From Candidatus Palauibacter sp. (GTDB lineage Bacteria; Gemmatimonadota; Gemmatimonadetes; Palauibacterales; Palauibacteraceae), in assembly GCF_965216145.1 (NCBI RefSeq), contig NZ_OZ244149.1:417011-481010 (forward strand): DNA of 64,000 nucleotides, read 5' to 3'. This document shows, one piece after another, positions 2,800-18,589 of this stretch (within the stretch, counting starts at the first letter, position 1; each line of letters opens with the position of its first letter). Under the pieces are notes generated by a model that made no database searches, had not been told where the DNA came from, and saw only the letters and a program-made list of their open reading frames with translations. The position numbers and the translations under genes are program-made.

Positions 2800-2878
2800 G
2801 GAAGGACCGAGAGATGAGGACTCCCGGAGACGAGCGTGAACGAGGCGCGGGACGTGAAGACGAGCATGGAGTCCCGCG

Positions 2879-3889
2879 TTGAGCGGCACCGATCGCCAGT
2901 GTCCGCTGTGTCTTCGGCAATGCGGAGGCGGCGGAGGTGAGTGGGGATATTGGTTTGATTGCGAAACGTGCGGGAAGTTCAGCGTCGAGCAGTACCTCAG
3001 GGCCAGCGACGCGACCAATGGTCTGACGGTTACACAGCGGTCCTGGCTGTCGCACTTCGCGCGGACGAAGTGGGACCTCCACGAGTCGTTGCCGAAGAGG
3101 GTTCCCGGCACCACTCCGGAGCCGACCCCTGCCGTGATCGACCGCAAGCTCGTGGAACAAGCCCGAAACGGAGACTTGGCCGTAACCCGTGCGCAGCAGG
3201 CGGCGAACGCGATCAGGCACATTGGAGATCGAGTCCTCGAGGGAGGAGGCGCCATCACTCTCCGATATGGCTCACCCAAGTTCGCAGCGGTCATCGGTGC
3301 TCCGAACTCCGGTAGTGCGCGGGAACTCATGGGCGAACTCGCCGCGGCGGACAGGGTCAAATGGAATGAACCGCCATACTTCCAAGGCGGCGAGGAACCG
3401 TATGCCAGTGCGGACCTTACGCTCACAGGCTGGGAGCAGTACGAGGAGATGAAGCACGGTTCGCTCGATGGAGGGTACGGATTCTTCGCGTGGCAATTCG
3501 GCGGCACAAGAACCGAGCCCATTTTCAAGGATGTCCTCAAGCCGGTCTTCAGGAAGCGGGGCTATCCGCTACGGGATATGAAGGATCTCTCCCAGCCCGG
3601 CCTGATCGACAACATCATGCAGGACCGGATCCGGGGCGCCTCGTTCGTCATCGTCGACCTGACCGACGGCAACCGCGGGTGCTACTGGGAGGGGGGCTTT
3701 GCACAGGCTCTCGAGAAGCCGGTCGTGTACATCTGCCATCAGGAAGCGTTCCACGACCCGGCCACGAAGCCGCACTTCGACACGAACCATTACACGGTCA
3801 TCTTCTGGGGTGCCGACAAGCCGAACGAGGAATTCGTCGAGGAGCTTATCGCGACGCTGCGGCGGCACCCCGGCGGACTGGATCTTTGA
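2879..3889 (+). CDS. Zinc-ribbon protein with C-terminal nucleoside 2-deoxyribosyltransferase-like (SLOG superfamily) domain
   Basis: N-terminal four-Cys ribbon (CPLC ... CETC). C-terminal FVIVDLTDGNRGCYWEGGFAQALEKPVVYICHQ matches the D..G...E.G.A.a..KPv signature of nucleoside deoxyribosyltransferase-like domains. Alternative (TTG) start per ORF track; 80 nt downstream of the preceding gene on the same strand. Confidence 0.6.
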   Translation: MSGTDRQCPLCLRQCGGGGGEWGYWFDCETCGKFSVEQYLRASDATNGLTVTQRSWLSHFARTKWDLHESLPKRVPGTTPEPTPAVIDRKLVEQARNGDLAVTRAQQAANAIRHIGDRVLEGGGAITLRYGSPKFAAVIGAPNSGSARELMGELAAADRVKWNEPPYFQGGEEPYASADLTLTGWEQYEEMKHGSLDGGYGFFAWQFGGTRTEPIFKDVLKPVFRKRGYPLRDMKDLSQPGLIDNIMQDRIRGASFVIVDLTDGNRGCYWEGGFAQALEKPVVYICHQEAFHDPATKPHFDTNHYTVIFWGADKPNEEFVEELIATLRRHPGGLDL

Positions 3890-4419: not shown

Positions 4420-4517
4420 GGTCAATTGAGGTCCAAGCTCCACTAGTTGAAGACAACCACTTACATAGGGTGTGTAAATTGGCGACCCGTCCAAAAAGCC
4501 GGGAACACCTCAGGATT

Positions 4518-5354
4518 CTATCCGAGGCTGTCGCGCAGGATTCTCTCCAATTCGTCAACTACGGCCCGCATGTGCAGCTTGTCTTCCGGGCGCTCTTCAC
4601 TATTGCGTATCGTATCGACGACATTTGACCATGTCTTATGGATTTCGGGCAATCTGAGCATCTTGGGATCCGCATTTAGTGCTACGTGTAGCAGCTCTTC
4701 CGCGCGAGTAAGGTCGAAAGCGTCATACGCATTAATTTTTTTGATACAGGCAAGATGCTCATTGGGGAAGTCCAACATCTGATAAAGATTATCAATATCT
4801 CTTGACAGATAAGCAGTATCCTGAAGAGCGCTTACAACTTGCTCTGCGATGTCCGACATGTTTGACTGGTGTCGGATCGCGATGGCCTCCTCAACGGCGT
4901 TGGCCAAATTGTCCCGAATCCACTCGTACCGTTCTTCGCTACTTCGCCCGGGAGGATCGTAACACTTCACCACACGGGAAAGATCTTCATGTGCGCCGAC
5001 AGCGATCCTGAACGGATTCGGACCCCTTGCGGCCACATGTCCATCCCGGTTTCGCAGGCCGTGGATGCGAATCCCGACGACGCCCATCCCATCCTTCCAG
5101 GACTTCTCAATCTCGTATTCGACCCATGGCCGTCCGGTGGTGTGGGTTCCCACCAAGACCACCGTGCAGGAGCGTGCTCGCATCTGGTCGACGATCCACG
5201 CCCTGATGGCCGGAGCACCCTGACGCGTCAATTCCTCCCAACTGGTATCCGTCGCCGGTCTGTTTCCCTCAACCACGCCGATGTTCCGAACCGTCGCCGC
5301 TCGCCAGCGGTCGGTTTCGTAGTTAAAGCTGTAGAACACCCTTCGCTTTAGCAT
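4518..5354 (-). CDS. TIR-like domain protein (DUF1863 / ThsB-like) with AT-rich C-terminal helical extension
   Basis: Start set at the internal ATG (MLKRRVFYSFNYETDRW...), residue 94 of ORF 4518..5633. N-terminal VFYSFNYETD ... CTVVLVGTHTTGRPWVEYEIEKSW ... GVVGIRIHGL fits the flavodoxin-like TIR/DUF1863 pattern. Confidence 0.65.
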   Translation of the reverse strand: MLKRRVFYSFNYETDRWRAATVRNIGVVEGNRPATDTSWEELTRQGAPAIRAWIVDQMRARSCTVVLVGTHTTGRPWVEYEIEKSWKDGMGVVGIRIHGLRNRDGHVAARGPNPFRIAVGAHEDLSRVVKCYDPPGRSSEERYEWIRDNLANAVEEAIAIRHQSNMSDIAEQVVSALQDTAYLSRDIDNLYQMLDFPNEHLACIKKINAYDAFDLTRAEELLHVALNADPKMLRLPEIHKTWSNVVDTIRNSEERPEDKLHMRAVVDELERILRDSLG

Positions 5355-5454: not shown

Positions 5455-8190
5455 CTATCGCGCGGGCCGGACGCCTCCCTTGCGGCGCAGACCGTAGCCG
5501 ATCCGGAAGACATCCGGGACATCGACGCGGTCATCCCGGAGGCGACGGAAGATACCCAGGGACTCCAAAGCCTCGCGGAGTTCATCGTGGTCATAATCCA
5601 TATGCGGCAGCGGGAGCCGCCACCCGTCTCCACTACCCGCCTGGGCCAGCTGCTTCAAGACGCGTCGCTCACGCCACAGATGAACGACTTCCTCGAAATC
5701 ACACGGAACAACCCGTCCGGAGAGCGGTTGCATCAGCACCTGCACCCATGGATAATCCTCCTGTAGCTCCCGAACCCGCGTCGTGGACGCCTCCCGCACA
5801 CCGTGCTTGATGCTCTGGTAGTGAAGGGCGTAGCCATGATCCGGATGGCGTTCATGAGAATCTTCCGCCGCTGAGCGCAACGCCGTGAGAAACGAGCGCG
5901 GACTGACCTTGCCCCCGGCGTCGGCGAGGTGGTTTGGGATCCATGTGTACGGGTATCCGCGTCTCCGATCAGTGCCCATCCACGGGCCCGCGAATTCGTG
6001 GAACTTGTCGCGCTGGGCCCCCTCGTCGCGGTCGAGCGGATACGGCACTTCGAAGCGCGGTGCCGTATCGTCATCAGTCGTGGACCAGTGTCCGTCCTGC
6101 AAGCGCGGACGGACGAGGTCACCTCGTGGACCGTTGGCCAGGGAATGCCAAAGCAGGCCGTAGAGATCCCGGCGCGGCCAGCTGAGATCGACAGCCGACG
6201 ACAACACTTTCGAAGCGTCCGGAAAGTCCGTGATCCGCCGCTCGTCCACCTGATCAGTTCTCAGGAAGATCTTCGCGCGCAAGCGGCGATACGGACGCAT
6301 GTCGAGGGCGTGCTCCAGCAATCCTCGAATCAGCTCGGACGCAGTCTGCCAGTCGGAGGCGGCGCGATCCAGAGCGTCAAATAGCACGACGGAATACACA
6401 CCCCTTGAGTCCAGTTCGACATCGATAGTCCGCAGGAGGTCGAGGACGACACTCGGGTCATCGAGGACGTACCTCGCGCGTTCAAGCCACGTATCGAACT
6501 GTCGTATCGGATGGTCGGCACCCGCCACCGCGCACGCATGCACGGTTCGCCAGATGATCCGGGGCTCCACGTTGTTGGCGATTAGTCGACAAAGATCGTC
6601 CCTCACCGGATAATCGCCCGGCACATTGGAGACACCGAATCCCGACTCGACGACTGAATCTTCGTTCAAAGGAAAGCCCCGCACCTCTCGCCCCAGCGAG
6701 CGACGAACCTCGGGACTCTGCAGGGCGCGCCACCAGAATGTCTTGCCTGAGCCGCGCATTCCAGTGACGAGCATCGTGTCGGGGTGCATGGCCTTTCGAT
6801 GCGAAGGCGGGATGTACACGGCCGACGACGGGACGGGCTCGCCGTAGCTCGCCGGATCGGGCAGCTCGCTGAACGCGAGGCGCACGGTCTCGGCCCGGGT
6901 CGGGTCGCCGACTGGCTCGGGGCTTCGGTAGAGCAGGTCGAACCGTCGGAGGAACTCCCTGTACGCTTGGGCCACCGTCGTTCGCTCCAGCTTCCGGAGA
7001 GAAATTCCGGCCGCGAACCCTCGTGTCCAATGGATCACCAGCGGATCATGCTGCCCCTCCTCGGACGACAGGTCAGCCGACACCCCCTCATCCGTTTCCC
7101 CGAGATCCACGATCTCGTCCTGCAGGCGATCCCGAAGGAGGATTCGTGCGTTTTCCCGGAACCGTTCGACGTACCGCTCGGTATCCGTCTCGGGCGTCAA
7201 GGCGGAGACGATCGACAGGCGTTCGCGTATCCGGGATGCCATGTTTGTGCGCGCCCAATGATCGAACAGAATCCCGTAGTCCGTCCAATGGCTGTCGGAG
7301 TCGACGGCGAACAGCATCACCTCCGCGTCCAGATCCGTCACCGTTGCCGCCGCAATATCGTGGAGGCCGCTCCGGCTCTCGATGAGCACGACGGTCGGGC
7401 TGAACTCCGTTTCCAGGTTCACCACCAACCGCTTCAAGCGACTCGTCCAAGGATCGATCGCCGTATCCATGTACGTGCGCCCGAGCTTTGCGAGGTATTC
7501 CCCCGGCTTCCTGCCGTGCGCCGGCGCCACCAGCACACGTCCCGGCAAGTCATGAGCCCAAGAGGGCTTCCCCGTCATCCGGCTCACGACATGATCTCCC
7601 TGTCCGACCAATTCTTCGACGAACCAGTCCGTGACGCCGAACTCCGGCTCGGCCGGGGGTTCCAACATGGCCGACGCCAGCCCGGGCGACTCTAGGTCCA
7701 AATCGATGACAAGCACATCCTCCGCCTGCCGGGCGAGGTGCCACGCCAACACCGCCGCCGTCGTGCTGCGCCCCACCCCACCCTTCACCGAGTATAGGAC
7801 GTAGCGGGCCGGGTGGTGTTCGCTCGACGGGTCCGGGACTGTCCACCATTCTTGGCCGACGACGAGCCGGTCGGCCCAATGAACGCCGGGCCTGATCAAC
7901 TGCGCCGTGTCGCCCAGCGTCTCCAGCAACGCGGGATCTACGAAGAGCACTGTCTTCTGCGGCAGGTGTCCGTGGGCCGCGAGCGCATCCGCCAAGCGAC
8001 TCGCCAAGCGGCTCAGCACTTCGCCGAGTTCGCGATCATCCTGGGCTGCTTCCGATACCGATATGCCGACCTTGCCGAAGAGGTTGCGCACGAGGTATAG
8101 CGGCGGTGCGTCGGCTGGGATCTCCATCCCTTCCAGCACCTCCGATACGAGCCGCCGCACTTGGTCGAACGGAACGAAGGTGTCGCTCAT
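5455..8190 (-). CDS. Dual-NTPase protein: ParA/MinD-like domain with deviant Walker A (KGGVGRST) plus a second P-loop NTPase (GMRGSGKT)
   Basis: Start at internal ATG (MSDTFVPF...), which overlaps the stop of the upstream 140-aa gene (ATGA). YSVKGGVGRSTTAAV followed by DVLVIDLDLESPG is ParA/Soj-like; LVTGMRGSGKTFWWRAL with later VVLFDALD gives a second Walker A/B pair. Confidence 0.7.
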   Translation of the reverse strand: MSDTFVPFDQVRRLVSEVLEGMEIPADAPPLYLVRNLFGKVGISVSEAAQDDRELGEVLSRLASRLADALAAHGHLPQKTVLFVDPALLETLGDTAQLIRPGVHWADRLVVGQEWWTVPDPSSEHHPARYVLYSVKGGVGRSTTAAVLAWHLARQAEDVLVIDLDLESPGLASAMLEPPAEPEFGVTDWFVEELVGQGDHVVSRMTGKPSWAHDLPGRVLVAPAHGRKPGEYLAKLGRTYMDTAIDPWTSRLKRLVVNLETEFSPTVVLIESRSGLHDIAAATVTDLDAEVMLFAVDSDSHWTDYGILFDHWARTNMASRIRERLSIVSALTPETDTERYVERFRENARILLRDRLQDEIVDLGETDEGVSADLSSEEGQHDPLVIHWTRGFAAGISLRKLERTTVAQAYREFLRRFDLLYRSPEPVGDPTRAETVRLAFSELPDPASYGEPVPSSAVYIPPSHRKAMHPDTMLVTGMRGSGKTFWWRALQSPEVRRSLGREVRGFPLNEDSVVESGFGVSNVPGDYPVRDDLCRLIANNVEPRIIWRTVHACAVAGADHPIRQFDTWLERARYVLDDPSVVLDLLRTIDVELDSRGVYSVVLFDALDRAASDWQTASELIRGLLEHALDMRPYRRLRAKIFLRTDQVDERRITDFPDASKVLSSAVDLSWPRRDLYGLLWHSLANGPRGDLVRPRLQDGHWSTTDDDTAPRFEVPYPLDRDEGAQRDKFHEFAGPWMGTDRRRGYPYTWIPNHLADAGGKVSPRSFLTALRSAAEDSHERHPDHGYALHYQSIKHGVREASTTRVRELQEDYPWVQVLMQPLSGRVVPCDFEEVVHLWRERRVLKQLAQAGSGDGWRLPLPHMDYDHDELREALESLGIFRRLRDDRVDVPDVFRIGYGLRRKGGVRPAR

Positions 8191-8609
8191 GGCGTCCCTC
8201 CCTGCGCAGCCCATTGAACCATCAGCCGAACCTCTGACGCCGCCCGACGATGCGGCTCGACGTAGGCCTCATCGAAGTTCCCCCGGCTGGCGTAGCGGTT
8301 ATGGTGCGACCAATCGGAGAACGGTTCCCCGCCCGGAAGCTGCGCAAGCAGCGCGCCCGCGCCTCGCTGCGCCGCGAACTGGTCGAACACGTTCCACAGT
8401 TCCTCGATATGTACGCGATGCGCCCGCTCTTCCGGCGCGCCGTCGGGGCGAACGAGCATACCAAGATTCTGCATGAGCGACTTCAGGCCGCACTCGGCGC
8501 TGAACCCGTACAACTGATCCGCGTTGGCCCAGCGACGCGCGGCCGACAGGTACTCGGCATCTTCCCAGTGTCGCTCGTGCGCGTCCTCGAAGTCCGCCGC
8601 GTAGATCAT
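8187..8609 (-). CDS. Hypothetical protein (140 aa), translationally coupled to the dual-NTPase gene
   Basis: Clean ORF starting MIYAADFEDAHERH; stop overlaps the downstream start. N-terminus resembles the methyltransferase C-terminal tail and the 65-aa orphan ORF. Contains RAHRVH, a weak R-x4-H HEPN-like hint only. Confidence 0.55.
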   Translation of the reverse strand: MIYAADFEDAHERHWEDAEYLSAARRWANADQLYGFSAECGLKSLMQNLGMLVRPDGAPEERAHRVHIEELWNVFDQFAAQRGAGALLAQLPGGEPFSDWSHHNRYASRGNFDEAYVEPHRRAASEVRLMVQWAAQGGTP

Positions 8610-9027: not shown

Positions 9028-9822
9028 TCACGGCTGTTCTTGAGGGGGTGTAGCGCTTTCGGCAGCACAGGCGATGGCGTCAAGCTTCTCGCTCACTTCC
9101 GGATCGACATCCGCAGGCGGCATGTGGCCGACGAGCCGGTAGAAGTTGCCCTTCGGCATGAGGTTTGGCAGGCCCAGCTTCGAGAAGTACGCGGTGAGCA
9201 GCGGCTTCAGGAACTCCGTGCTCACCTTCAGGTCGGCGCCCCACGGCGACGGCTTCCCGAGACGCCGCACGTTCACGGCGCCCTCGTCGAGCCGGGTCTC
9301 GGCCGCAGCCAGCCCCGACATCGGCGGCAGGAAGGCCATCCTCACGCTCCCCGCCTCGTCGGGGACGGGCATGCGGTCGGGAACGCGATCCTCCGTCAAC
9401 CGCAGCGGACGGCAGTACACCGACTCGTCGTTCGCGTAATCGAACTCGAGCCCGCACGTCCAGGCACGCCCGCGGGTCACCCCCTCGACGATGATGTCGA
9501 TGCGGATGTTCCTCGTTTGCTGTTTACCGCCTACGTACCGCACATCTCGCACCCGAAGATCCCGCCACGCGAGCTTAACGCTCGGAATTGGAATGGACAC
9601 GAGATCGCGACGGTTGATGGTCACGCCCGGGCGTTTCTCGGGCGTTCTCTTGCCGGCCCGCTTGGCGTTCCACTGGGTCAGCCCCGTGTGCCACAGGGCG
9701 AGCGCCTGCATGGCGGAGGTCTTGCCCGAATTGTTGGGTCCGATGAAGACGACCGGGCTCCCGAGCTCGACTTCGACGTCTTCGAAGCGCTTGAATCTTC
9801 GAATGGTCAGCTTTGTCAGCAT
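9028..9822 (-). CDS. AAA ATPase N-terminal fragment (AAA_15/AAA_21-like, as in GajA/PtuA/OLD-family ATPases), probably truncated
   Basis: Start at internal ATG (MLTKLTIRRFKRFEDVEVELGSPVVFIGPNNSGKTSAMQAL). Walker A present, but no Walker B, signature or H-loop before the stop at 264 aa. Confidence 0.5.
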   Translation of the reverse strand: MLTKLTIRRFKRFEDVEVELGSPVVFIGPNNSGKTSAMQALALWHTGLTQWNAKRAGKRTPEKRPGVTINRRDLVSIPIPSVKLAWRDLRVRDVRYVGGKQQTRNIRIDIIVEGVTRGRAWTCGLEFDYANDESVYCRPLRLTEDRVPDRMPVPDEAGSVRMAFLPPMSGLAAAETRLDEGAVNVRRLGKPSPWGADLKVSTEFLKPLLTAYFSKLGLPNLMPKGNFYRLVGHMPPADVDPEVSEKLDAIACAAESATPPQEQP

Positions 9823-9901: not shown

Positions 9902-11272
9902 TCATCTGACCCCCTGGAACTCCGCATCCACTCGTTCCAAGTCACGTCTCAGGTCATTCGCCGCTTGGCGCGCAAGGCGGAGCCGTTCCTTCTGATTCCG
10001 GCACCGTTCGCCCAGTTCCGAATAGCATATGGACAGATTGAGAAGTGACGAGAACAGGCCTTGAGCTGCCGTGTCGACCGCCTTGAGATCTTCCGGCGAA
10101 AAAGGCAGATCGCTTCCGCGCTCACCAAGTTCTTGGCCTTGCCCCGCCAGCTCGCGTAGACGCAGATCGCACTCGTTCGGCGTGCTCTTACCCGCTTCGA
10201 GATCGGAGAGGACGCGGATCACATTTTGCACGAGAGGACGGCTGGCTGAAACAAGTGTCTTGATCTCCCTTAGCATGGGCCCCTTCTTGCCCGTATGCTG
10301 TCGATGGAATTCTCTCCAGTGCCCGTACTGGTGATTCCAAAGAATCGAGACACCATCCCAAACTTCGTCACCGTCCCACGGCATCGGACGACAGGATGGA
10401 TCGAGGCCCGGATCAACCCACTGAGTTCGCGCAATCCAGTTCGCGTGACGAACGTCGTCGTGTCCGCCCGCCACATAGAGGTATACGACGTCTGCTCTAT
10501 GCCCGGACCAAAGCGCCTCAAGTTGAGGACTTCGGTGGTATTCCTCTTCGCGAATCTCCGGAAGAGCCCGACTGATCACGTCCCTAACGCCATCGCGCCC
10601 CGCGTGGCGATCAACTACCAGCACCGCTGAATAACGCTTGGCACCCGCATGACTCACGTCCTCGAGCCGCACGATCTCGTACGGCAGGTCGCCCTTCACC
10701 GGCACTTCGAGGATTGCGTCGGGCGCACGACGCTGGCCACAGGCACACGTCCCGTCGTTACGGAACAGCTTCCCGTCCCGAGGGCAGATCTTCTCGTATG
10801 CGATGAGGAGCCGGGCGCAATCAACCGTATCGACGATGAGGTGTGGGACAGTCGCGTCGCTGGCCGTCTGCGCAAAGTCGCGTCGCGCATCATCCTGAAT
10901 GTCCCCTACGGCCATCAGCACTGCCAAACCGAGGTCCGGTATCGTTCGGAGCTTAGCGAACTGATGAGAAACGATTTTGCTCGTAACCTTCGGGAAGGAA
11001 GGACCCTTCAAGACGAAGCCGGCGGTAACCGGACGACCACGTAGGACGATCCGAGTCGTAACGATGTCGGCGATCTCCGTTGGACCGTGTGGCGTTTCGT
11101 TCGGGTCGAAGAGGATCTCACGAACTGCTGATTCCAGCGCACGTTCGTTCAACCGCCGAACCTCCGCGAGCACGTCGTCAGACACGCCTGTGGCTGGAAT
11201 CCGAACCACCTTGGCGAACTGATCGATTTCACCGAGCGCCACCAAACGGGCCCGGTTCACGCCGATCCCCAT
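9902..11272 (-). CDS. Hypothetical protein (456 aa) with Cys cluster and C-terminal coiled coil; candidate partner of the methyltransferase
   Basis: Start at internal ATG (MGIGVNRARL...), 29 nt after the methyltransferase stop. Contains CPRDGKLFRNDGTCACGQ and a charged C-terminal helical region. No confident family assignment. Confidence 0.5.
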   Translation of the reverse strand: MGIGVNRARLVALGEIDQFAKVVRIPATGVSDDVLAEVRRLNERALESAVREILFDPNETPHGPTEIADIVTTRIVLRGRPVTAGFVLKGPSFPKVTSKIVSHQFAKLRTIPDLGLAVLMAVGDIQDDARRDFAQTASDATVPHLIVDTVDCARLLIAYEKICPRDGKLFRNDGTCACGQRRAPDAILEVPVKGDLPYEIVRLEDVSHAGAKRYSAVLVVDRHAGRDGVRDVISRALPEIREEEYHRSPQLEALWSGHRADVVYLYVAGGHDDVRHANWIARTQWVDPGLDPSCRPMPWDGDEVWDGVSILWNHQYGHWREFHRQHTGKKGPMLREIKTLVSASRPLVQNVIRVLSDLEAGKSTPNECDLRLRELAGQGQELGERGSDLPFSPEDLKAVDTAAQGLFSSLLNLSICYSELGERCRNQKERLRLARQAANDLRRDLERVDAEFQGVR

Positions 11273-11303
11273 CCGGTCGTGAAAGACCTGTTCTGCCTTG
11301 TTC

Positions 11304-14300
11304 TCAAGTCGTTCCTCCCGCCGACAGGTGTTGCGTACCCTGCGCACGTTCGGAATTTAGAGCCATCAGGCGGGCCAACACCTCGTCCCGCACCTCGTTG
11401 GGCCAGCGATATCGATGGGGTGCCCTTGCACGGCGACGCTCATCTTCGTCGGTCTCATGGTTGAGCAGGAACTCGCATCGGGTAGGGATGTCGGACCAGC
11501 CGTACGCATCGAGGACGACCCGATCGATGTCCGCGTGAAGCTCGCGGAGCCTCGATACCGCCGGATCCGTTTCGTTCCGGTCGTGGAACCGGTTGTACGT
11601 CTTGGTCAAGCCCTCCTGGTTGTGAAGCATGAGGTCGCCGCGAAACTCGTAGTATGCCTTGCCGACTCGCTCCCGGACGGGATCTGCATGCCAGTCTGGA
11701 GGAAACGGGAAAGTCTCAAAGCAGTCGGACGGCGTGTACCGCAGCCGTTCCTCAAGCGTCGACCCGAAAAAGCGTGCCCAAACCTCGTGAACGCGGGATT
11801 GAAGGACGCAAAACGCTGCGTAAGTGTCCATGGAAAAAATCACAAGAGTGTTGGCGAAAACCATTCGGGCTGGAAGAAACGCTAATGCCAGATGGGGCGT
11901 GGCACCGCAGTTGACGGCCAACACTCGATTCAAATCCGCGATGGTCGCGTAGAGTCCTGCAGCTTTTTCGGCGTGTTGCCACCAACGCTCTCGACGCACC
12001 TTACGGTTCTGTCGCTCACGGTCGGGCTTCACCTTTTCTTCTAGAATCTGCACTAACTCTGGCCATCGCTCGCGGCACTCGTCCTGCCGACGCTTGCCAA
12101 AGTTGATCACGTAGCGGTGATGCGCTTGCGCGAGGCTCGTGTTGACCTCCTGCCCGCCAATGTAGGGGAAGATCACTTGCGCATTGTGCGGATCCTCAGC
12201 GATAAGCCTCCGCATTTCGGCCAAGGGCGTGGCCACTCCCTTGGTGTCGGTGTCGTCGAACGTGAAGCCCATGCCGAGGACGATGCTCCCCTGAAAGCTC
12301 TGCTCCGCGTTTTCCTTGAGCCGCGGCGGGTCGTCGTTCCCACCTGCGTGGAACAGAAATGCCGTGATCCGTTCGACGGCGGCGTCATCGAGCGATTTCT
12401 GGTGCCCGAACCTCCCTTTCACGATGTGCAGGACGCTGACCACTACAGCCGCAACGCCCGGCCACTTGAAGCGGGTTTGCGCGCGGTAGATCTCTCCGCC
12501 GCGCGTGCAGATCCAGCGGAGGCCCGTGGACCGGGTGTCGCCTTGCGAAATCGTGTTCGTCGCGATGAGGCCCAGCGTGCCTTGTTTGCGCAGCAGGTTG
12601 AACGACCGCCGGAAGAAGTGGGCGACCAAATCCGCGTTGCCGTGGCTCCGCGCGTGCAGTTCCTTGAGCCACAGCGGGTAGCCGGGGACGTTCGAGGCCG
12701 CGACGGTGTTCTTGCCCGCGAACGGCGGGTTCCCGACGAAGGCGTCAAAGCCCGGGTTCCGGCGCTCGAACACCTCCGGGAACTCGATCTCCCAGTGGAA
12801 CGGGGCGAACGGCGTGGTCTCCTTCCGTTTCGCGGCGAGGCGCCCCCCGTGGGAGAGAACGGCGAGGCGTTCCGTATCGCTGTCGCCCAGAAGAGACGCG
12901 AAGTGCTGCCGCCGGCGGGCCTCCCGCTGCCTCGCTCTTGTCTCGAGGAAGAACGCCTCCAGCGCCAGATCGCCGAAGAACCGGACGTCCGTCAGCGCCG
13001 CGTTCGCGTCGTCCAGCTTGTCTCGAAGTTCCCGCTGGTCGATGTCGGGCGGCGCGTCCCTGATCTCCCCGCGTAGCGCGACCACGCGGTCCACTGCGTC
13101 CGAGACCACGGTGTTCAGCTCCAGCTGGGGCGGCAGGGATCCCCTCTTCCAGGTGAAGGCGGCGATCTGCGGCTTCGCCAGGCCGACCAGGGAGTCGCCG
13201 TCGCGGAGGGCGTGGTCCACGAAGGTGAGCGGTTCGTCCTTGGCCAGGGTGGCCAGCCACAACGACATCTTGGCGAGGTCCACCGCCATGGGGTTGCGGT
13301 CCACGCCGTAGAGGCAGCGATGCGCCACGAGACGGCGGGCGAACAGATCTTCGTCCTCCCCGGACGGGAGAGCGGGGAGCGTTCCGTGCATCCGCCATGC
13401 GGTGACGAGATGGTCGCCCAGTTGGCGGCAGGCCTCGACGAGGAAGGCGCCCGAACCCATGGCGGGATCGCAGACCTTGAGATCGAGGATCTGCTCGGCG
13501 CGGGGCGGGCCGCCGTCTCCGAGGCGTTCGAGGATCGGTTCCAGCGCTTGCCGCACGATCGGTTCGGTGAGTTCGCGCGGCGTGTAGTGCGATCCCGAGC
13601 GCCGCCGCGCCTCGCTGGGCTGGAGGATCATCGCGCCGCGCGGCACCAGATCCGGTGTGGCCGCCGCGTCGATGACGTTGTGCAGGGAGGCGTGCGCGTC
13701 GGCGAGCGTTTGCGCCGCGCGGAGGGGCTTGCTCACGGTGGGCGTCAGCTTTCGGCCCGTCCGGTCAAGAATCCATTTCGGGCGATCGACGGGCGCAACA
13801 TCCAAGAGCAGTTCCAGATCCACCGTTGTCGAGGCTCCGAGCTTCTTCTGCGCCTTGACGGCGGCGGACCGGCCCGTCGCGGTCTCCAGCCGGAACCCCA
13901 TCATCGTCTCGTACACGGAGCCGATCTGCTCCACGTCGAGCGCGCGGTACGAGATCCGTTCGCCGTCGAGGACCAGCAGCTTGTCGAGCACCCGGTAGAT
14001 CGTTCCGTCCGGCACCAACGGAACGTCGATCCCCTCGTGCACCTGCGGTGCGCCGCTCCCGCGCCATCCCTCGAGGAACGGGAACCGACTCGGGCTGAAC
14101 AGTTCTCCGCGCCGCGGCGGGAGTCTCATTCCGTCGCACTCCGCCCCGTCGTGGACCATGCGAAACAGCACGACGAGCTGTGCCCACGCCCCGTAGCGCT
14201 GGTCCATCGTGTCCGGGTTGAGCGCCGCGTCCTCCCTCAGCCTCTCGTACAGTCCGCCCAGCGAATAGGAGCCGAGGAAGGTCGCGTCGTCCGACAACAT

Positions 14301-15359
14301 CCCGCGCTCTTCGGCGTAGAGCACGAACACGAGGCGCAGTACGACGGTGAGGAGCGCGCGGTACACGTTGTCCGGATCCTCGTCCAGCGCCTCGCGCAGA
14401 AGCTTACCGTGCGACGCGTCGTGCGCCGCCTGGAAGCCACGCAACAACTCGTGCAGGGCGTGCAGCACCTGCTCGGCCAGCCGCTCGCTGACCACGTTCT
14501 GGTACTTGCGGCTGCTCTCCAGAAGGGCCGCCAGCCGTTGCTCCCGCGGCAGCGCCAGCAGCCGCTTCTCGGAGAGGAGGAGGCGTAGCGCCGCACACAG
14601 CGGGCGGCCCGCCGTGGAGAGCATGTCGCCGACCCGGAAGTCCATCCACCCGGAACTCTCGCCCCGCGGCGCGGACATGAGCCGGATCACGCGTCCGTTG
14701 AAGAGCAGCCCGGCGGGGACCCCGGTGCGGCGCAGCAGCCGTTCCATGCGCCCGTGGGGCGAGGCCTCGAGCCGGCCCGCACCCGTGGCGACGCGATCGA
14801 GGTCCTCCCCGGGGTCGAGGACGGTGACGAGCAGTTGCCACGGCACGCCTCCCTCCGCCGGATCCCGTTCGCGCACGGCGAGGCGGGGCCGCAGCACATC
14901 CCGGTATTCCTGGAGGCTGACCTCCAATTCGGGAGGAATGGGCGAATCGCCTATGCCCGCGTAGCCGCTGGGCGAGAAGCGCCAGCCCAGGACGGATCTC
15001 GCAAACGCTTCGAAGTCGGGCAGGTAGGGTTCGGGTTCTGCCGAGGTGCCGAACGCGCGTTCCCGGACGCACTCGTTCAGAAGCCGCTGTCCCCCGATGT
15101 CCCGCCGGTCAAGCACCGCGCCCGCCTGGACGAGCGCGTGTGCGGACACCACGAGCCCGGTCGGCTGGATGAACCCCAGCCACTCGAGGTGGTCCCGGAC
15201 GTAGGGCGAGGGCTTGGCCACGCGGCTCAGCCGGTCTCGGGCCAGAGATACACGAGTCCGACCGGCTCCACGCGACGCGCCCGCACCCGATAGAAGTCCT
15301 CGATCCGCGCCGGCTCGTCGCGCAGGTCGCGCTCGAACTGCTTGAGCCGGTCCCGCCAC
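11304..15359 (-). CDS. Gamma-class N6-adenine DNA methyltransferase (PglX / type IIG / Eco57I-like), ~1350 aa
   Basis: Motif order X-I-IV: SGSHYTP, then DPAMGSGAFL (SAM-binding motif I), then FVGNPPFAGKN (catalytic NPPF). Long N- and C-terminal extensions. ORF-track start is an alternative codon overlapping the helicase 3' end; the true start may be about 45 codons downstream. Confidence 0.8.
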   Translation of the reverse strand: MAGPAQAVRARPARRAGADRGLLSGAGASRGAGRTRVSLARDRLSRVAKPSPYVRDHLEWLGFIQPTGLVVSAHALVQAGAVLDRRDIGGQRLLNECVRERAFGTSAEPEPYLPDFEAFARSVLGWRFSPSGYAGIGDSPIPPELEVSLQEYRDVLRPRLAVRERDPAEGGVPWQLLVTVLDPGEDLDRVATGAGRLEASPHGRMERLLRRTGVPAGLLFNGRVIRLMSAPRGESSGWMDFRVGDMLSTAGRPLCAALRLLLSEKRLLALPREQRLAALLESSRKYQNVVSERLAEQVLHALHELLRGFQAAHDASHGKLLREALDEDPDNVYRALLTVVLRLVFVLYAEERGMLSDDATFLGSYSLGGLYERLREDAALNPDTMDQRYGAWAQLVVLFRMVHDGAECDGMRLPPRRGELFSPSRFPFLEGWRGSGAPQVHEGIDVPLVPDGTIYRVLDKLLVLDGERISYRALDVEQIGSVYETMMGFRLETATGRSAAVKAQKKLGASTTVDLELLLDVAPVDRPKWILDRTGRKLTPTVSKPLRAAQTLADAHASLHNVIDAAATPDLVPRGAMILQPSEARRRSGSHYTPRELTEPIVRQALEPILERLGDGGPPRAEQILDLKVCDPAMGSGAFLVEACRQLGDHLVTAWRMHGTLPALPSGEDEDLFARRLVAHRCLYGVDRNPMAVDLAKMSLWLATLAKDEPLTFVDHALRDGDSLVGLAKPQIAAFTWKRGSLPPQLELNTVVSDAVDRVVALRGEIRDAPPDIDQRELRDKLDDANAALTDVRFFGDLALEAFFLETRARQREARRRQHFASLLGDSDTERLAVLSHGGRLAAKRKETTPFAPFHWEIEFPEVFERRNPGFDAFVGNPPFAGKNTVAASNVPGYPLWLKELHARSHGNADLVAHFFRRSFNLLRKQGTLGLIATNTISQGDTRSTGLRWICTRGGEIYRAQTRFKWPGVAAVVVSVLHIVKGRFGHQKSLDDAAVERITAFLFHAGGNDDPPRLKENAEQSFQGSIVLGMGFTFDDTDTKGVATPLAEMRRLIAEDPHNAQVIFPYIGGQEVNTSLAQAHHRYVINFGKRRQDECRERWPELVQILEEKVKPDRERQNRKVRRERWWQHAEKAAGLYATIADLNRVLAVNCGATPHLALAFLPARMVFANTLVIFSMDTYAAFCVLQSRVHEVWARFFGSTLEERLRYTPSDCFETFPFPPDWHADPVRERVGKAYYEFRGDLMLHNQEGLTKTYNRFHDRNETDPAVSRLRELHADIDRVVLDAYGWSDIPTRCEFLLNHETDEDERRRARAPHRYRWPNEVRDEVLARLMALNSERAQGTQHLSAGGTT

Positions 15360-18300
15360 GAGCGGATGTTGGCCCGAAGCTGCTTCCGGTCCTCGTCGTC
15401 GAGGGCGAGCGTGAGCTGGGGTTCCTTCTCGTGCCGCTGCAGCTCCTTCTCGACGCGATCCCGCTGGCGAGTCAGGGTCTCGCGCAGCTCCCCCGCCTCC
15501 CGCTCACCGCGCTCGCTGAGACGCTCGGCCGCCTTCTTCGCCAACTCCTCCGCTCTGGGTTCCAACTGGGGTCTCAAGTCGCCGATGTCTGCGGGGGCCG
15601 CGGCGAGCAGCCGTTCCCGCACGGTCTCGCTCGGCTGCGACACCCGTTCCGAGTCGAGCACCCGGTCGAGCAGGGCCAGCGTCTTCCGCTCCGCGTCCGC
15701 CCGGTATCGCTCCAGCGGGCCCTGGCGGCGTTCGGGGTCCGTCCAGCGGGCCGTCACCGTAACGATCTCCTCGTGCAGGCGCTCCGCGCGTCGGCCGTAT
15801 AGCGACAGGCGCCCCAGCAGCACGACCCGGGGGATGGAGTCGGCCACCTGCGCGAGACAGGCCCGCGACAGGTCGTGGTGCACGAAGCCCTGCGCCCGGA
15901 ACCGGGCCAAGAGGCGCTGCGCGACCCGCTGTTCAAGGTGCAGGTGCACGACATCGTCCGTCAGTTCGCCCGGATCCTCGAACACGACCGGGCGGACGGG
16001 CGCCTCCCGCCGCCACTCCACGATCTTCTGATCCCGCTTCATCGGTGCGCGCAGCGTGTCGAGGGTCGACGCCCACGAGGGGTCCGCCGCCACCCGTCCG
16101 TCGAGGGCCGGGAACGACCACACCGCCCGCCCGTTCTCGTCGCGCGCCTCCCTCAGCGGCGCCGCGTTCTGAAGCCCCAGCGAGCACGACAGCGCCCTGC
16201 GGAATGCCTCAGGACCGAACCGCACCCACTCGCGCGACTTCTCGAGCAGGTTCCGGCAGCGCTCGATCTGATCCTCAAGATCGCTTTGCCGCTCGCGCGC
16301 CGACTCGAACTCGTCCGCCACGCGGCGCTTGCGGTCCGCCTCCAGATCCATCCCCGCCAGCGTCTCGGCGAGCCCCGTGGCATCACGGCGCCGAATCCCC
16401 TGCTTGAGCCGCTTCTCGATGTCCTCCTCGATCACCTTCGAGAGGCTGCCCAGCTCCCGGCGGATGGTCTCGGTCTTCCTCACCAGCACCTCGAGCACCC
16501 GGTCTTCGTGACGCTGGGGCAGGGTGAAGTAGTGGCAGCGCACTTCGTCCGCGGGCTGGAGCTTGCGGTCGATCCGCCCGTTGCGCTGCTCGATCCGGCC
16601 GGGGTTCCAGGGCAGGTCGAAGTGGAATAGGTCGGTGCAGTGCGCCTGGAAGTTCAGCCCCTCGCGCGCCGCATCCGTCGCCAGCAGGATGCGCAACGGA
16701 TCCCGCGACGGAGGCGTGTTGAAGCGGCGCTGGATTTCCTTGCGCCGCGCGCCGCTCGTGGCCCCCTCGATCACGGCAATCCGCTCCTCCGCCCTGTCCG
16801 TTCCCGCGATCGCGTGCGACAGCGCGTCCCTGAGGAACCGCTTGGTGCCCTCCACATGCTCGGTGAAGATCAGCACCCGGCGCTCGTTCCAGCGGGGCGT
16901 CCCCACTGCAGGCATTCCAAAGGGCGGAAGTTCGGGACACAGGTTCTCCCGGATCCAATCGAGGAGCGCGCGCGTCTTCGCGTCGGGGTGCGTGCGCGCA
17001 GAGTCCGCGACCTCCTGCATGCGGTCGAGCAGGCGCTGCTCCTTCCGCCACAAGTCCTCGATCCGGGCATCGCGCTTCAACGCCGACTCGGCCTCCCGGT
17101 TGGCGGCCTCGATCTGTGCTTCCTCCGCAGCTTCCTCAGCACCGTCGAGGATCTCGTCGTCCGCCCCCGGTGTCGTCAGGAAATCCTCCGCCAGCGCCCG
17201 GCGCGCCGCTCCGCCGCGAGCGTGCCGCTCGTCGCTTCCCGCGTTGCGGCCGGTCCCGGCCTCCCATTGCCTCTTCACCGTCTTCCGGTGCCGCGCGAGA
17301 CTGATGGCGAACGCCTCGATGGACGACAGCAGGCGCTGTTGAAGGCCGACGACGAGCAATCCCGCCGCCGCCCGCCCCCGGGCCGTCGCGTGGGCGAAGC
17401 GCTGGTCGCGCACGGAGCGGTATTCGTCCAGCAGCCTTGAGAGCACGAGTTCCGGCGCGTCCTCCGGCAGGTTGTCGATGACGACCGGTCTCACGTCCCG
17501 CTTGGGGAAGCCGCCCTGGATCTCGCGGATGTCTTCCTTGAGACGGCGGATCATCACGGCGTCGAGGTCCGTCTTCCCGCGCACCGTCACGCCTCGCGTG
17601 AAGCGGTGCGGGTCGAGCAGTTCCAACAGCGTGGAGAAGCTGTTCGAGTGCCCGTTGTGCGGCGTCGCCGACAGGAAGAGACGATGCTCGAAGCGGTAGC
17701 AGAGGTCGCGAATCGCGCGCGTGAACTTCGACTCGATGCCATACCGCCCGCCGTGGCTTGGGGCGGCGTGATGCGCCTCGTCCAGAATCAGCAGGCTTCC
17801 GGGCGACATCGTTCCGAGCCACTCCCGCATAGGATCCGCGTAGGCGGGATCGGCCAACAGCCGGTGCGAAACGAGGAACCGGCTGTGCGTCCGCCACGGA
17901 TTCACGCCGAAGCCGCGCTCGCGGCGCATCGTCGCCACGTAGTGCCGGTCCAGGATCTGGAACACGAGCCCGAACCGCTCCTCCATCTCCGCCTTCCACT
18001 GCTCCAGCACCGAGGGAGGCGCGGCCACAACGATGGTCTTCGCCTTTCGGCGCAGGAGAAGCTCGCGCGCGATCAGCCCGGCCTCGATCGTCTTGCCCAG
18101 ACCGGTGTCGTCCGCGATGAACAGGTTCACGCGCGGCAGGCGGAGGGCCTTCCTCAGCGGCTCCATCTGGTAGGCGTCTAGGGTGATCCCGGCCCGGAAC
18201 GGCGCCTGAAACAGCGACGGATCGGTCGCGGTCGTGCAGCTCCACCGCAACGTGTTGAGGAAGGCCGCGAAGTACTCCGGCGAGTCGAAGCCGCGCTCCG

Positions 18301-18589
18301 CCAAGTTCTCCCACGGCTCATCATCGAGGATGGCGCGGTCGAGCTCGTACTTCCAGAAGACTTCGAGTTCCTGCCCCTGCGCATCGTCATCCGCGCACGC
18401 CAGCCGGACCCGCGCGGACTCACTGGACTGTCGGCCCCCCGTCACCTCCTCCACCAGCCAGCGCCGTGTACGTACCCGCACCATCTCCCCCACCTCCGGA
18501 TCCCGGCTTGGCAAGCCACGGGAAAGCCGAGGGTCACCGTGGGCGTTAGCTGCGTCATGGGAACCGAGCGGTTCCAGGTCAGGCGTCAT
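15227..18589 (-). CDS. SF2 helicase, SNF2/DEAH-type (DISARM DrmD-like / BREX helicase-like), ~1120 aa
   Basis: Helicase motifs I LFIADDTGLGKT, II LLILDEAHH, III LFLSATPHNG, VI QRNGRIDRKLQ; long C-terminal coiled-coil region. Confidence 0.8.
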   Translation of the reverse strand: MTPDLEPLGSHDAANAHGDPRLSRGLPSRDPEVGEMVRVRTRRWLVEEVTGGRQSSESARVRLACADDDAQGQELEVFWKYELDRAILDDEPWENLAERGFDSPEYFAAFLNTLRWSCTTATDPSLFQAPFRAGITLDAYQMEPLRKALRLPRVNLFIADDTGLGKTIEAGLIARELLLRRKAKTIVVAAPPSVLEQWKAEMEERFGLVFQILDRHYVATMRRERGFGVNPWRTHSRFLVSHRLLADPAYADPMREWLGTMSPGSLLILDEAHHAAPSHGGRYGIESKFTRAIRDLCYRFEHRLFLSATPHNGHSNSFSTLLELLDPHRFTRGVTVRGKTDLDAVMIRRLKEDIREIQGGFPKRDVRPVVIDNLPEDAPELVLSRLLDEYRSVRDQRFAHATARGRAAAGLLVVGLQQRLLSSIEAFAISLARHRKTVKRQWEAGTGRNAGSDERHARGGAARRALAEDFLTTPGADDEILDGAEEAAEEAQIEAANREAESALKRDARIEDLWRKEQRLLDRMQEVADSARTHPDAKTRALLDWIRENLCPELPPFGMPAVGTPRWNERRVLIFTEHVEGTKRFLRDALSHAIAGTDRAEERIAVIEGATSGARRKEIQRRFNTPPSRDPLRILLATDAAREGLNFQAHCTDLFHFDLPWNPGRIEQRNGRIDRKLQPADEVRCHYFTLPQRHEDRVLEVLVRKTETIRRELGSLSKVIEEDIEKRLKQGIRRRDATGLAETLAGMDLEADRKRRVADEFESARERQSDLEDQIERCRNLLEKSREWVRFGPEAFRRALSCSLGLQNAAPLREARDENGRAVWSFPALDGRVAADPSWASTLDTLRAPMKRDQKIVEWRREAPVRPVVFEDPGELTDDVVHLHLEQRVAQRLLARFRAQGFVHHDLSRACLAQVADSIPRVVLLGRLSLYGRRAERLHEEIVTVTARWTDPERRQGPLERYRADAERKTLALLDRVLDSERVSQPSETVRERLLAAAPADIGDLRPQLEPRAEELAKKAAERLSERGEREAGELRETLTRQRDRVEKELQRHEKEPQLTLALDDEDRKQLRANIRSWRDRLKQFERDLRDEPARIEDFYRVRARRVEPVGLVYLWPETG

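What the first reader, a model, noticed from the sequence alone, without database searches (positions are those of the whole stretch)
9902..18589. SNF2-type helicase + PglX-like N6-adenine methyltransferase + 456-aa unknown: DISARM/BREX-like but lacking the other core genes
A DEAH/SNF2 helicase (~1120 aa) overlaps a ~1350-aa gamma-class N6A methyltransferase (motifs X, I, IV), followed by a 456-aa Cys-rich protein. This resembles DISARM (DrmD + DrmMI) or a BREX methylase/helicase pair, but no DrmA/B/C (DUF1998, PLD) and no PglZ/BrxC/BrxL genes are present. It could be a reduced or distinct methylation-based restriction system with the 456-aa protein as effector.
Basis: partly seen in the sequence, partly recalled or inferred. 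Interest (0 to 1): 0.7.

Follow-up and report, generated by a model that had tools for sequence, protein, structure and literature searches.

The report
Truncated DISARM operon with embedded defence genes
The helicase and methylase are the first two genes of a known anti-phage system (class 1 DISARM) that has lost its three effector genes here, and the 456-aa "unknown" is a separate, uncharacterised nuclease-like gene lodged inside that operon rather than its missing effector.

Summary
The three ORFs are real. The helicase is DrmD: it scores 1030 bits against the NCBIfam DISARM_DrmD model, whose cut-off is 610. The methylase is DrmMI, with a full-length PADLOC match of 1266 bits. It is not PglX. 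At their true starts the two genes are separated by 5 nt and do not overlap.

No DrmA, DrmB or DrmC is present in the window. Relatives show this is a secondary loss. In two sister contigs the same drmD-drmMI-456aa block continues into drmA-drmB(-drmC). Among 63 informative loci from other species, 48 have DrmA within 10 kb.

The window's copy sits with a dead ATPase, PDC-M28 and a TIR gene in the drmMI-to-drmA slot. Defence genes embedded in DISARM operons have already been published.

Verdict: a decayed class 1 DISARM carrying embedded cargo. The only modestly new element is the nuclease-like family as a defence candidate.

The parts
15227..18484 (-). drmD, the SNF2-like helicase of class 1 DISARM (1085 aa). 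It is intact.
   Evidence: NCBIfam NF038317 DISARM_DrmD scores 1029.8 bits against a cut-off of 610. PADLOC DrmD scores 1022 bits over the full length. It has GLGKT128 and DEAH235. It keeps 314 of the 315 columns that are invariant in 57 orthologues.
11304..15221 (-). drmMI, the N6-adenine DNA methyltransferase of class 1 DISARM (1305 aa, GTG start). It has an MmeI-like MTase and TRD, and its N-terminal nuclease-like domain is degenerate.
   Evidence: PADLOC DrmMI scores 1266 bits over the full length. Pfam finds Eco57I, MmeI_Mtase and MmeI_TRD. It has DPAMGSG585 and NPPF831. MmeI_N is only sub-threshold at 21 bits, and no conserved PD...ExK motif is present. The sequence is identical to P0121.
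9902..11272 (-). 456-aa gene of an uncharacterised solitary family. It comprises an N-terminal PD-(D/E)xK-fold domain (about residues 55-160), a Cys/His loop (163-180), a middle alpha/beta domain (198-312) and a C-terminal helical bundle (316-452). It is embedded cargo, not a DISARM component.
9028..9822 (-). Remnant of an AAA_15/AriA-like ABC ATPase (264 aa). An in-frame deletion of about 316 aa removes the signature motif, Walker B and H-loop, so it is probably non-functional.
   Evidence: Alignment to the 580- and 581-aa orthologues in L007 and L171. Only the Walker A end matches Pfam and PADLOC models. The full-length relative matches AriA and AriAB weakly.
8187..8609 (-). PDC-M28A (140 aa), a candidate defence gene.
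   Evidence: PADLOC PDLC04558 scores 161 bits over the full length.
5455..8190 (-). PDC-M28B and PDC-M28C fused in one 911-aa ORF. It combines a KGGVGR-motif ParA-like ATPase with an Sll1717-family P-loop ATPase.
   Evidence: PADLOC M28B scores 397 bits and M28C scores 537 bits on the two halves. NCBIfam NF047398 and NF047389 also match.
4518..5354 (-). ThsB-like TIR protein (278 aa, PDC-M50B type). It is the last gene of the co-oriented chain.
   Evidence: Pfam ThsB_TIR, PADLOC ThsB and PDC-M50B match. The exact RefSeq protein is WP_420463147.1, annotated as a TIR domain-containing protein. No PDC-M50A partner is present in the window.
4483..4513 (.). Synteny breakpoint just after the TIR stop codon. 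In relative L008 drmA starts at this point. The window carries a 31-bp stretch that is 87% identical to the terminal inverted repeat of an IS3-family element. That element is inserted at 4504-4506, with a 3-bp duplication, in a 99.97%-identical contig.
4..3889 (+). Neighbouring opposite-strand module. It comprises the C-terminal 931 aa of an EruA-like NACHT antiphage protein (4-2799) and a 336-aa ORF (2879-3889). It occupies the place where DrmABC would be expected.
   Evidence: NCBIfam NF058535 antiphage_EruA scores 415 bits on the truncated protein. The L010 gene table shows a 1354-aa protein followed by a PDC-S01 ATPase.

Best explanation
The locus is the 5' half (drmD-drmMI) of a class 1 DISARM operon. 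It lies in a low-GC3 defence island of a Candidatus Palauibacter (Gemmatimonadota) chromosome. In this protein family the junction between drmMI and drmA is a frequent landing site for other defence genes. In the Palauibacter lineage that slot holds the 456-aa nuclease-fold gene, an AriA-like ATPase (internally deleted here), PDC-M28 and a TIR gene.

In sister genomes drmA-drmB(-drmC) follow this cargo. In this genome they are gone. Synteny ends a few bases after the TIR stop codon, next to an IS-end-like sequence, and an unrelated module on the opposite strand follows.

Shown: the gene identities, their integrity, the synteny, and the absence of DrmABC from the window.

Inferred: DrmMI still deposits m6A at a non-palindromic site as an orphan-like methylase. 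Its catalytic motifs and all family-invariant residues are intact. DrmD is intact but has no partner. DISARM-type interference is lost or strongly weakened, because DrmAB carry most of the protection in the characterised class 1 system.

Also inferred: the 456-aa protein acts on its own as a stand-alone immune nuclease. On this reading its conserved C-terminal module (middle domain plus helical bundle) senses or regulates, and the N-terminal PD-(D/E)xK domain cleaves nucleic acid.
For: Identity: DrmD passes the NCBIfam equivalog cut-off, and DrmMI gives a full-length PADLOC match.

Canonical relatives: L009 has DrmA-DrmB(MZB)-DrmC(PLDc_2)-x-DrmD-..-DrmMI, with DrmMI 70% and DrmD 76% identical.

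Sister loci: L008 has DrmD (94%)-DrmMI (86%)-455aa-M28A-M28BC-TIR-DrmA-DrmB. L171 has DrmMI-451aa-ATPase-x-x-HEC-01A/B-DrmA-DrmB-DrmC. The L008 1142-aa protein belongs to the family that NCBI names 'DISARM system helicase DrmA'.

Census of 80 species-representative loci: 48 have DrmA within 10 kb. The drmMI-to-drmA gap is at most 730 bp in 13 loci and 1.8-9.6 kb in 27 loci. The gaps are filled with HEC-01, PDC-M50, PDC-M28, IetAS, DarTG and Dsr2.

Loss: there is no tblastn hit to DrmA/B/C in the window. No DrmA at 63% identity or more lies on the 4,317,876-bp contig of this genome, although other proteins of that contig are in the same collection.

Integrity.

Autonomy of the 456-aa family. 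Its nuclease fold is shown. Modular reuse of its domains, including as the C-terminal domain of a NACHT-type 1348-aa protein and in fusion with an SF2 helicase, is.

Literature: DISARM I is defined by five core genes (PMC9252829). DrmAB give the main protection, and DrmMI methylates ACACAG (bioRxiv 10.1101/2021.12.28.474362). Embedding of defence genes in DISARM is described in bioRxiv 10.1101/2024.01.29.577857.
Against: The rest of the 4.3-Mb genome could not be read. A diverged DrmABC elsewhere, or one more than 14 kb downstream beyond the opposite-strand module, is therefore not excluded.

DrmD and DrmMI show no decay at all. That fits either a recent loss or a retained function of the pair.

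In all four related loci the 456-aa gene lies directly after drmMI (a gap of about 30-60 nt), so lineage-specific coupling cannot be ruled out.

The nuclease active site is atypical. D69 and K89 are invariant, but the residue two positions before the lysine is hydrophobic.

The IS-end match is short: 27 of 31 bases, E = 0.002 in an 800-bp search space.
Confidence: 0.72

Rival explanations
1. DrmD, DrmMI and the 456-aa protein form a reduced, self-sufficient methylation-based restriction system. DrmMI marks self DNA, DrmD translocates, and the 456-aa nuclease cuts unmethylated DNA.
For: The three genes are adjacent, on the same strand and closely spaced. The 456-aa gene follows drmMI directly in all four related loci. 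Its N-terminal domain has a restriction-endonuclease fold. DrmD and DrmMI are fully intact despite the absence of DrmABC.
Against: Two of the related loci still carry DrmA-DrmB(-DrmC) downstream, so the trio is not a replacement for them. None of 83 other loci with the 456-aa family has DrmD/DrmMI orthologues or any conserved partner. None of 80 other DrmMI loci has the 456-aa family. The slot it occupies holds unrelated autonomous defence systems in other genomes.
Confidence: 0.07
2. DISARM is complete but split. DrmA/B/C are encoded elsewhere in the 4.3-Mb chromosome and act in trans with this DrmD-DrmMI pair.
For: DrmD and DrmMI show no sign of decay. Only 64 kb plus about 2.6 kb of the genome could be inspected. 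The DrmA search lists only the best 120 of 7995 hits.
Against: No DrmA at 63% identity or more comes from the 4,317,876-bp contig. The cognate DrmA would be expected at about 90% identity, given that DrmD is 94% identical to the L008 copy. In all 48 informative loci with DrmA, the gene lies within 10 kb and on the same strand as drmMI.
Confidence: 0.12
3. The pair belongs to a BREX or ARMADA system, or is a Type IIG/IIL restriction-modification enzyme with a helper helicase.
For: There are weak PglX and BrxH hits, and a 557-bit PADLOC REase_MTase_IIG hit to the methylase. A sub-threshold MmeI_N match is also present. ARMADA also pairs an Snf2 helicase with an adenine methylase (PMC13463889; bioRxiv 10.1101/2025.09.15.676423).
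Against: PglX models score 30-34 bits against cut-offs of 400-900. The DrmD and DrmMI models score far higher than the BrxH, PglX and IIG models. No YprA/DUF1998 helicase-nuclease (ArmC) or UvrD-like ArmD is in the window. The MmeI-type PD...ExK motif is not conserved in the family, and the 'PD' aspartate is Arg in this copy.
Confidence: 0.02

Closest known systems
Class 1 DISARM (drmD, drmMI, drmA, drmB, drmC; Ofir et al. 2018, recalled from memory; Serratia sp. SCBI system in bioRxiv 10.1101/2021.12.28.474362; DrmAB structure in PMC9142583)
   Same: DrmD and DrmMI are orthologues. DrmD passes the equivalog model, and the two proteins are 57-76% identical to copies that sit in complete loci. 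The gene order drmD-drmMI is the same, and the helicase and MTase motifs are intact.
   Different: DrmA, DrmB and DrmC are missing from the locus and probably from the genome. The operon is interrupted by unrelated cargo.
Defence genes embedded within DISARM, BREX, Type I RM and Hma operons (Payne et al. 2024, bioRxiv 10.1101/2024.01.29.577857)
   Same: Co-oriented foreign defence genes lie between core genes. PDC-M28, PDC-M50 and HEC-01, which come from that study, are the cargo seen here and in related loci.
   Different: The 456-aa family is not in PADLOC-DB v2.0. The host system here has since lost its distal half, so the cargo is no longer formally embedded.
Stand-alone or effector Mrr-like PD-(D/E)xK nucleases (AF1548, the nuclease domains of the Type ISP enzyme LlaBIII, MspJI/AspBHI, and the Avs4 effector domain)
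   Different: There is no detectable sequence similarity. The active-site motif is atypical (D69 ... V-L-K89). The middle domain and C-terminal helical bundle have no assigned counterpart.
ARMADA type II (ArmA Snf2, ArmB methylase, ArmC YprA-nuclease, ArmD UvrD; PMC13463889)
   Same: An Snf2-type helicase is paired with an adenine methylase at the head of the operon.
   Different: The proteins here are DISARM-clade orthologues, and no ArmC or ArmD is present.

Membership tests
DISARM class 1 (PADLOC definition: DrmA, DrmB, DrmC, DrmD and DrmMI all required; PMC9252829) | DrmD SNF2-like helicase | tested here: met
   NF038317 scores 1029.8 bits against a cut-off of 610. PADLOC DrmD scores 1022 bits.
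DISARM class 1 | DrmMI N6-adenine methyltransferase | tested here: met
   PADLOC DrmMI scores 1266 bits over the full length. Motifs I and IV are present.
DISARM class 1 | DrmA helicase | tested here: not met
   No tblastn hit in the 64-kb window, nor in about 2.6 kb beyond its left end. No close DrmA comes from this genome's contig.
DISARM class 1 | DrmB (DUF1998/MZB) | tested here: not met
   No tblastn hit in the window with the L009 or L008 DrmB.
DISARM class 1 | DrmC (PLD nuclease) | tested here: not met
   No tblastn hit in the window with the L009 DrmC.
BREX | PglX methyltransferase | tested here: not met
   NCBIfam BREX-1, BREX-2 and BREX-6 PglX models score 30-34 bits against cut-offs of 400-900.
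BREX | PglZ, BrxC and BrxL | tested here: not met
   No such Pfam or PADLOC hit was found among the ORFs chosen by length or codon bias in window 1-31 kb (16 scanned). Smaller ORFs there and the rest of the window were not scanned.
ARMADA | YprA-family helicase with DUF1998 and a C-terminal nuclease (ArmC) | tested here: not met
   No helicase other than DrmD was found among the scanned island ORFs, and no DrmA/DrmB-like tblastn hit was found.
Type IIG/IIL (MmeI-like) restriction-modification enzyme | N-terminal PD-ExK endonuclease domain with its catalytic residues | tested here: not met
   MmeI_N scores 21 bits, below the gathering score of 27. The aspartate position is Arg here, and no ExK is conserved across 23 homologues.
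PD-(D/E)xK nuclease superfamily (456-aa protein) | Restriction-endonuclease alpha/beta fold | tested here: met
PD-(D/E)xK nuclease superfamily (456-aa protein) | Complete catalytic D...(D/E)xK motif | tested here: inconclusive
   E66, D69 and K89 are invariant, but the K-2 position is hydrophobic. Q104, D127 and D132 are invariant candidate substitutes.
Embedded defence candidate (guilt-by-embedding criterion of Payne et al. 2024) | Gene lies between core genes of a complete known system, on the same strand, and is not a mobility or housekeeping gene | tested here: met
   This holds for the homologues in L008 and L171, which lie between drmMI and drmA. It does not hold in the window itself, where drmA is absent.
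PDC-M28 candidate system | M28A, M28B and M28C proteins | tested here: met
   PADLOC scores are 161, 397 and 537 bits. B and C are fused in one ORF.
PDC-M50 candidate system | M50A small membrane protein together with the M50B TIR protein | tested here: not met
   M50B matches at 183 bits. No M50A homologue is present in the window.

The most novel reading that the evidence does not exclude
The family of about 450 aa represented by the 456-aa gene is an undescribed, widespread stand-alone immune nuclease of bacteria and archaea. It would combine an exchangeable N-terminal PD-(D/E)xK effector with a conserved sensor or regulatory module (middle domain plus four-helix bundle). In the Palauibacter lineage it is lodged inside DISARM, directly after drmMI. 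There it may back up the methylation-based system or even read its state.
Probability: 0.45. Interest if true: 0.45.

Novelty: new member of a known kind. Interest (0 to 1): 0.3.

Why it matters
For annotation, a lone DrmD-DrmMI pair should be read as a truncated or cargo-split class 1 DISARM. It should not be read as a new minimal restriction system. In this protein family DrmA can lie up to about 10 kb downstream of drmMI, behind embedded systems, so short-range gene-neighbourhood rules will miscall such loci.

For discovery, the 456-aa family meets the published guilt-by-embedding criterion. It has a nuclease fold and swaps effector domains in the way immune proteins do. It has 1012 cluster representatives at E <= 0.001, yet it is absent from Pfam, NCBIfam and PADLOC. 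That makes it a cheap, testable single-gene defence candidate.

Tried and rejected
(1) Extending the view to the left of the window. The 251-aa protein P0242 is in the protein collection but not in the contig index. P0244 could not be looked up. The TIR protein gave only a 35-kb ENA contig that ends about 2.6 kb beyond the window.

(3) Sequence searches of the 456-aa family against Pfam, NCBIfam, PADLOC and PDB chains found nothing meaningful.

(4) Viral contigs and GenBank phages contain no member of the family.

(5) The promoter and terminator scan and the tRNA scan were uninformative.

(6) I first read the IS3/IS110 block in L010 as the agent of the DrmABC deletion. It turned out to be a simple insertion with a 3-bp duplication into the site that is empty in the window. 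Only the 31-bp IS-end-like sequence in the window hints at an older IS event.

(7) The idea that the 456-aa gene and the neighbouring 580-aa ATPase form a two-gene system was rejected. The ATPase is absent from L008 and from all 83 other loci.
Full report
**Observation**

The window is GC-rich, and host genes have a third-position GC of about 0.9. The first ~19.9 kb has lower third-position GC and looks like an acquired island. The 456-aa ORF is 100% identical to a protein of a Candidatus Palauibacter sp. (Gemmatimonadota) that lies on a 4,317,876-bp contig.

Seven genes follow each other closely on the minus strand. Most intergenic gaps are 100 nt or less, and the largest is about 420 nt:
- DrmD, 15227-18484
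- DrmMI, 11304-15221
- the 456-aa gene, 9902-11272
- a short ATPase ORF, 9028-9822
- PDC-M28A, 8187-8609
- a PDC-M28B/C fusion, 5455-8190
- a ThsB-like TIR gene, 4518-5354

With the starts shared by homologues, DrmD (1085 aa) and DrmMI (1305 aa, GTG start) are separated by 5 nt. The helicase motifs (GLGKT, DEAH) and the methylase motifs (DPAMGSG, NPPF) are present. The 456-aa protein has only 8 cysteines.

**Identity of the helicase and the methylase**

DrmD exceeds the NCBIfam equivalog cut-off for 'DISARM system SNF2-like helicase DrmD' (1029.8 bits against 610). The BREX PglX models score only 30-34 bits on the methylase, against cut-offs of 400-900. PADLOC gives full-length DrmD (1022 bits) and DrmMI (1266 bits) matches. 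These are far above the BrxH, PglX, Hma and Type IIG models.

DrmMI has the MmeI-type methylase and target-recognition domains. Its MmeI_N match is only sub-threshold, and no PD...ExK motif is conserved. I therefore infer that it is not a nuclease.

Both proteins are intact. DrmMI keeps every column that is invariant in 23 homologues. DrmD keeps 314 of the 315 columns that are invariant in 57 orthologues, and the single change is shared with its closest relatives.

**Where are DrmA, DrmB and DrmC?**

None is in the window (tblastn), and none is in the ~2.6 kb beyond its left edge. Relatives tell the story:
- L009 (DrmMI 70% identical) is a canonical DrmA-DrmB-DrmC-x-DrmD-..-DrmMI locus.
- L008 (DrmD 94%, DrmMI 86%) reads DrmD-DrmMI-455aa-M28A-M28BC-TIR-DrmA-DrmB up to the contig end.
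- L171 reads DrmMI-451aa-ATPase(581 aa)-x-x-HEC-01A/B-DrmA-DrmB-DrmC.
- L007 is syntenic with the window, down to the host FG-GAP gene, but its contig ends within the TIR gene.

In the window, similarity to L008 stops at the end of the TIR gene. In L008 drmA starts at exactly that point.

A contig that is 99.97% identical to the window (L010) carries an IS3-family element with a nested IS110. It is inserted 12-14 nt after the TIR stop, with a 3-bp duplication. The window has the empty site, but it also has a 31-bp stretch that is 87% identical to that element's terminal repeat.

Beyond this point lie genes on the opposite strand. They are a 336-aa ORF and an EruA-like NACHT protein, followed in L010 by a PDC-S01 ATPase.

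A search with the L008 DrmA returned thousands of DrmA homologues. None of the best 120 (63% identity or more) comes from the 4,317,876-bp contig, although other proteins of that contig are in the same collection. The cognate DrmA is therefore most probably lost. A diverged copy elsewhere cannot be excluded.

**How general is the pattern?**

I examined 80 loci from species-representative genomes that encode DrmMI relatives (57-68% identity), covering Acidobacteriota, Spirochaetia, Latescibacterota, Planctomycetota, Actinomycetota, Proteobacteria and others. The counts are:

| Category | Loci |
|---|---|
| DrmA within 10 kb | 48 (39 in order D-MI..A, 1 MI..A without DrmD, 8 in order ABC-D-MI) |
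| DrmD plus DrmMI, full flanks, no DrmA within 10 kb | 8 |
| DrmMI alone, full flanks | 7 |
| Flanks too short to judge | 17 |

The distance from drmMI to drmA is at most 730 bp in 13 loci and 1.8-9.6 kb in 27 loci. The long gaps are filled with known or candidate defence systems:
- HEC-01A/B (10 loci)
- PDC-M50 (a small membrane protein plus a TIR protein)
- PDC-M28
- IetA/IetS
- DarT/DarG
- Dsr2
- a GNAT protein

Several of the eight loci without DrmA carry the same long cargo families, so DrmA may simply lie further away in them.

This embedding has already been described for DISARM, BREX, Type I RM and Hma by Payne et al. (bioRxiv 10.1101/2024.01.29.577857). That study is the source of the PDC and HEC families.

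**The 456-aa protein**

It belongs to a well-conserved family of about 451 aa with members in bacteria and archaea, including Gammaproteobacteria, Thermotogae, Thermoplasmatales and a Paenibacillus megaplasmid. A profile search of 1.84 billion cluster representatives finds 1012 proteins at E <= 0.001 and 251 at E <= 1e-30. The family has no Pfam, NCBIfam, PADLOC or PDB sequence match.

In 83 further loci it is never next to DrmD/DrmMI orthologues, and no neighbour is conserved. Its neighbours are rich in RM enzymes, GmrSD, HEPN, Abi, MADS, Old and similar genes. It was not found on viral contigs or in phage genomes.

The family is modular. The nuclease module (profile positions 1 to about 177) also occurs in three other settings: at the C-terminus of a 1348-aa protein with an N-terminal P-loop (NACHT-like by eye), fused to an SF2 helicase, and behind other domains.

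The C-terminal module (positions from about 185 to 451) occurs in proteins of about 411 aa. These carry a different N-terminal domain with a 'DxGID...QxK' motif, which by eye is another Mrr/DUF4365-type nuclease.

Exchange of effector domains of this kind is typical of immune proteins. This last point is my own inference from established knowledge of Avs, CBASS and similar systems.

**The ATPase ORF**

Compared with the 580- and 581-aa orthologues in L007 and L171, the window copy has an in-frame deletion of about 316 residues. The deletion removes the ABC signature, Walker B and H-loop, so the copy is a remnant. The full-length protein resembles AriA/AriAB-type ATPases only weakly.

**Mechanism, with shown and inferred steps separated**

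Shown:
- the gene content and the integrity of the genes;
- the synteny with complete DISARM loci;
- the absence of DrmABC from the window;
- the independence of the 456-aa family from DISARM.

Inferred from the characterised Serratia class 1 system:
- In that system DrmMI methylates ACACAG, DrmAB provide most of the protection, and methylation switches interference off (bioRxiv 10.1101/2021.12.28.474362).
- Here DrmMI probably still methylates the chromosome.
- DrmD and DrmMI alone probably do not restrict.
- The remaining protection from this stretch would come from the embedded genes (the 456-aa nuclease-like protein, PDC-M28 and the TIR protein) and from the neighbouring EruA-like module.

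**Verdict**

Comparative data contradict the proposal of a reduced or distinct system with the 456-aa protein as its effector.

The locus is a truncated class 1 DISARM with embedded cargo. It fails the five-gene DISARM definition (PMC9252829), and it is not BREX, ARMADA or a Type IIG enzyme.

Its novelty is low. The one item worth following up is the 456-aa family as a candidate stand-alone immune nuclease.

Noticed in passing
window 9028-9822 (-): This AAA_15/AriA-like ATPase carries an in-frame internal deletion of about 316 aa relative to the 580- and 581-aa orthologues in L007 and L171. The ABC signature, Walker B and H-loop are gone. It is a dead gene that still reads as an ORF.
   Followed up: yes
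window 4483-4513, with L010:10852-13719: A 31-bp stretch right after the TIR stop codon is 87% identical to the terminal inverted repeat of an IS3-family element. In a 99.97%-identical contig, that element (with a nested IS110) is inserted at window 4504-4506 with a GTT duplication. Identity between the two contigs drops from 99.97% to 89% and then 65% at this point.
   Followed up: partly
window 4-2799 (+) and 2879-3889 (+): The window begins inside an EruA-like NACHT antiphage protein (NCBIfam NF058535, 415 bits on the C-terminal 931 aa; 1354 aa in L010). A 336-aa ORF follows, with only weak TIR and nucleoside deoxyribosyltransferase-like similarity. Both converge on the DISARM chain.
   Followed up: partly
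window 5455-8190 (-): PDC-M28B and PDC-M28C, which are separate profiles in PADLOC, are fused into one 911-aa protein here and in L007 and L008. NCBIfam calls the two halves a KGGVGR-motif AAA ATPase and an Sll1717-family P-loop ATPase.
   Followed up: partly
window 18739-19875 (+): A 378-aa ORF with no Pfam, PADLOC or NCBIfam match lies in the low-GC stretch between drmD and the host FG-GAP gene. The syntenic relative L007 has PDC-M07A/B at this position instead.
   Followed up: no
L011-L090 (drmMI-to-drmA junction): In 27 of 40 loci from many phyla, 1.8-9.6 kb of co-oriented defence cargo lies between drmMI and drmA. The cargo includes HEC-01, PDC-M50, PDC-M28, IetAS, DarTG and Dsr2. A PDC-M50A/B pair directly follows drmMI in L053, L072, L076 and L083. 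Some loci also have 0.7-3.3 kb inserted between drmD and drmMI.
   Followed up: yes
L031, L040, L047, L056, L070, L080 and L035 (Spirochaetia MAGs): These genomes carry solo DrmMI-like genes without DrmD or DrmABC within 10 kb, with several copies per genome (four to five in OZ251575.1). In L031, L047 and L080 the next gene has a sequence resembling Rpn-family recombination-promoting nucleases. That call was made by eye and was not scanned against a family library.
   Followed up: no
P0427, P0437, P0451, P0438, P0470 and P0369 (relatives of the 456-aa family): The family is modular. Its nuclease module is reused as the C-terminal domain of a 1348-aa P-loop (NACHT-like) protein and is fused to an SF2 helicase. 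Its C-terminal module is combined with a different N-terminal 'DxGID...QxK' domain in proteins of about 411 aa.
   Followed up: partly
window 10733-10784 (residues 163-180 of the 456-aa protein): The family's conserved C...C-x-x-G-H loop reads C-A-C-G-Q in the window protein and C-T-C-G-R in P0004. The His is lost and an extra Cys appears two residues after the conserved one. This may be a compensating change of a metal ligand.
   Followed up: no
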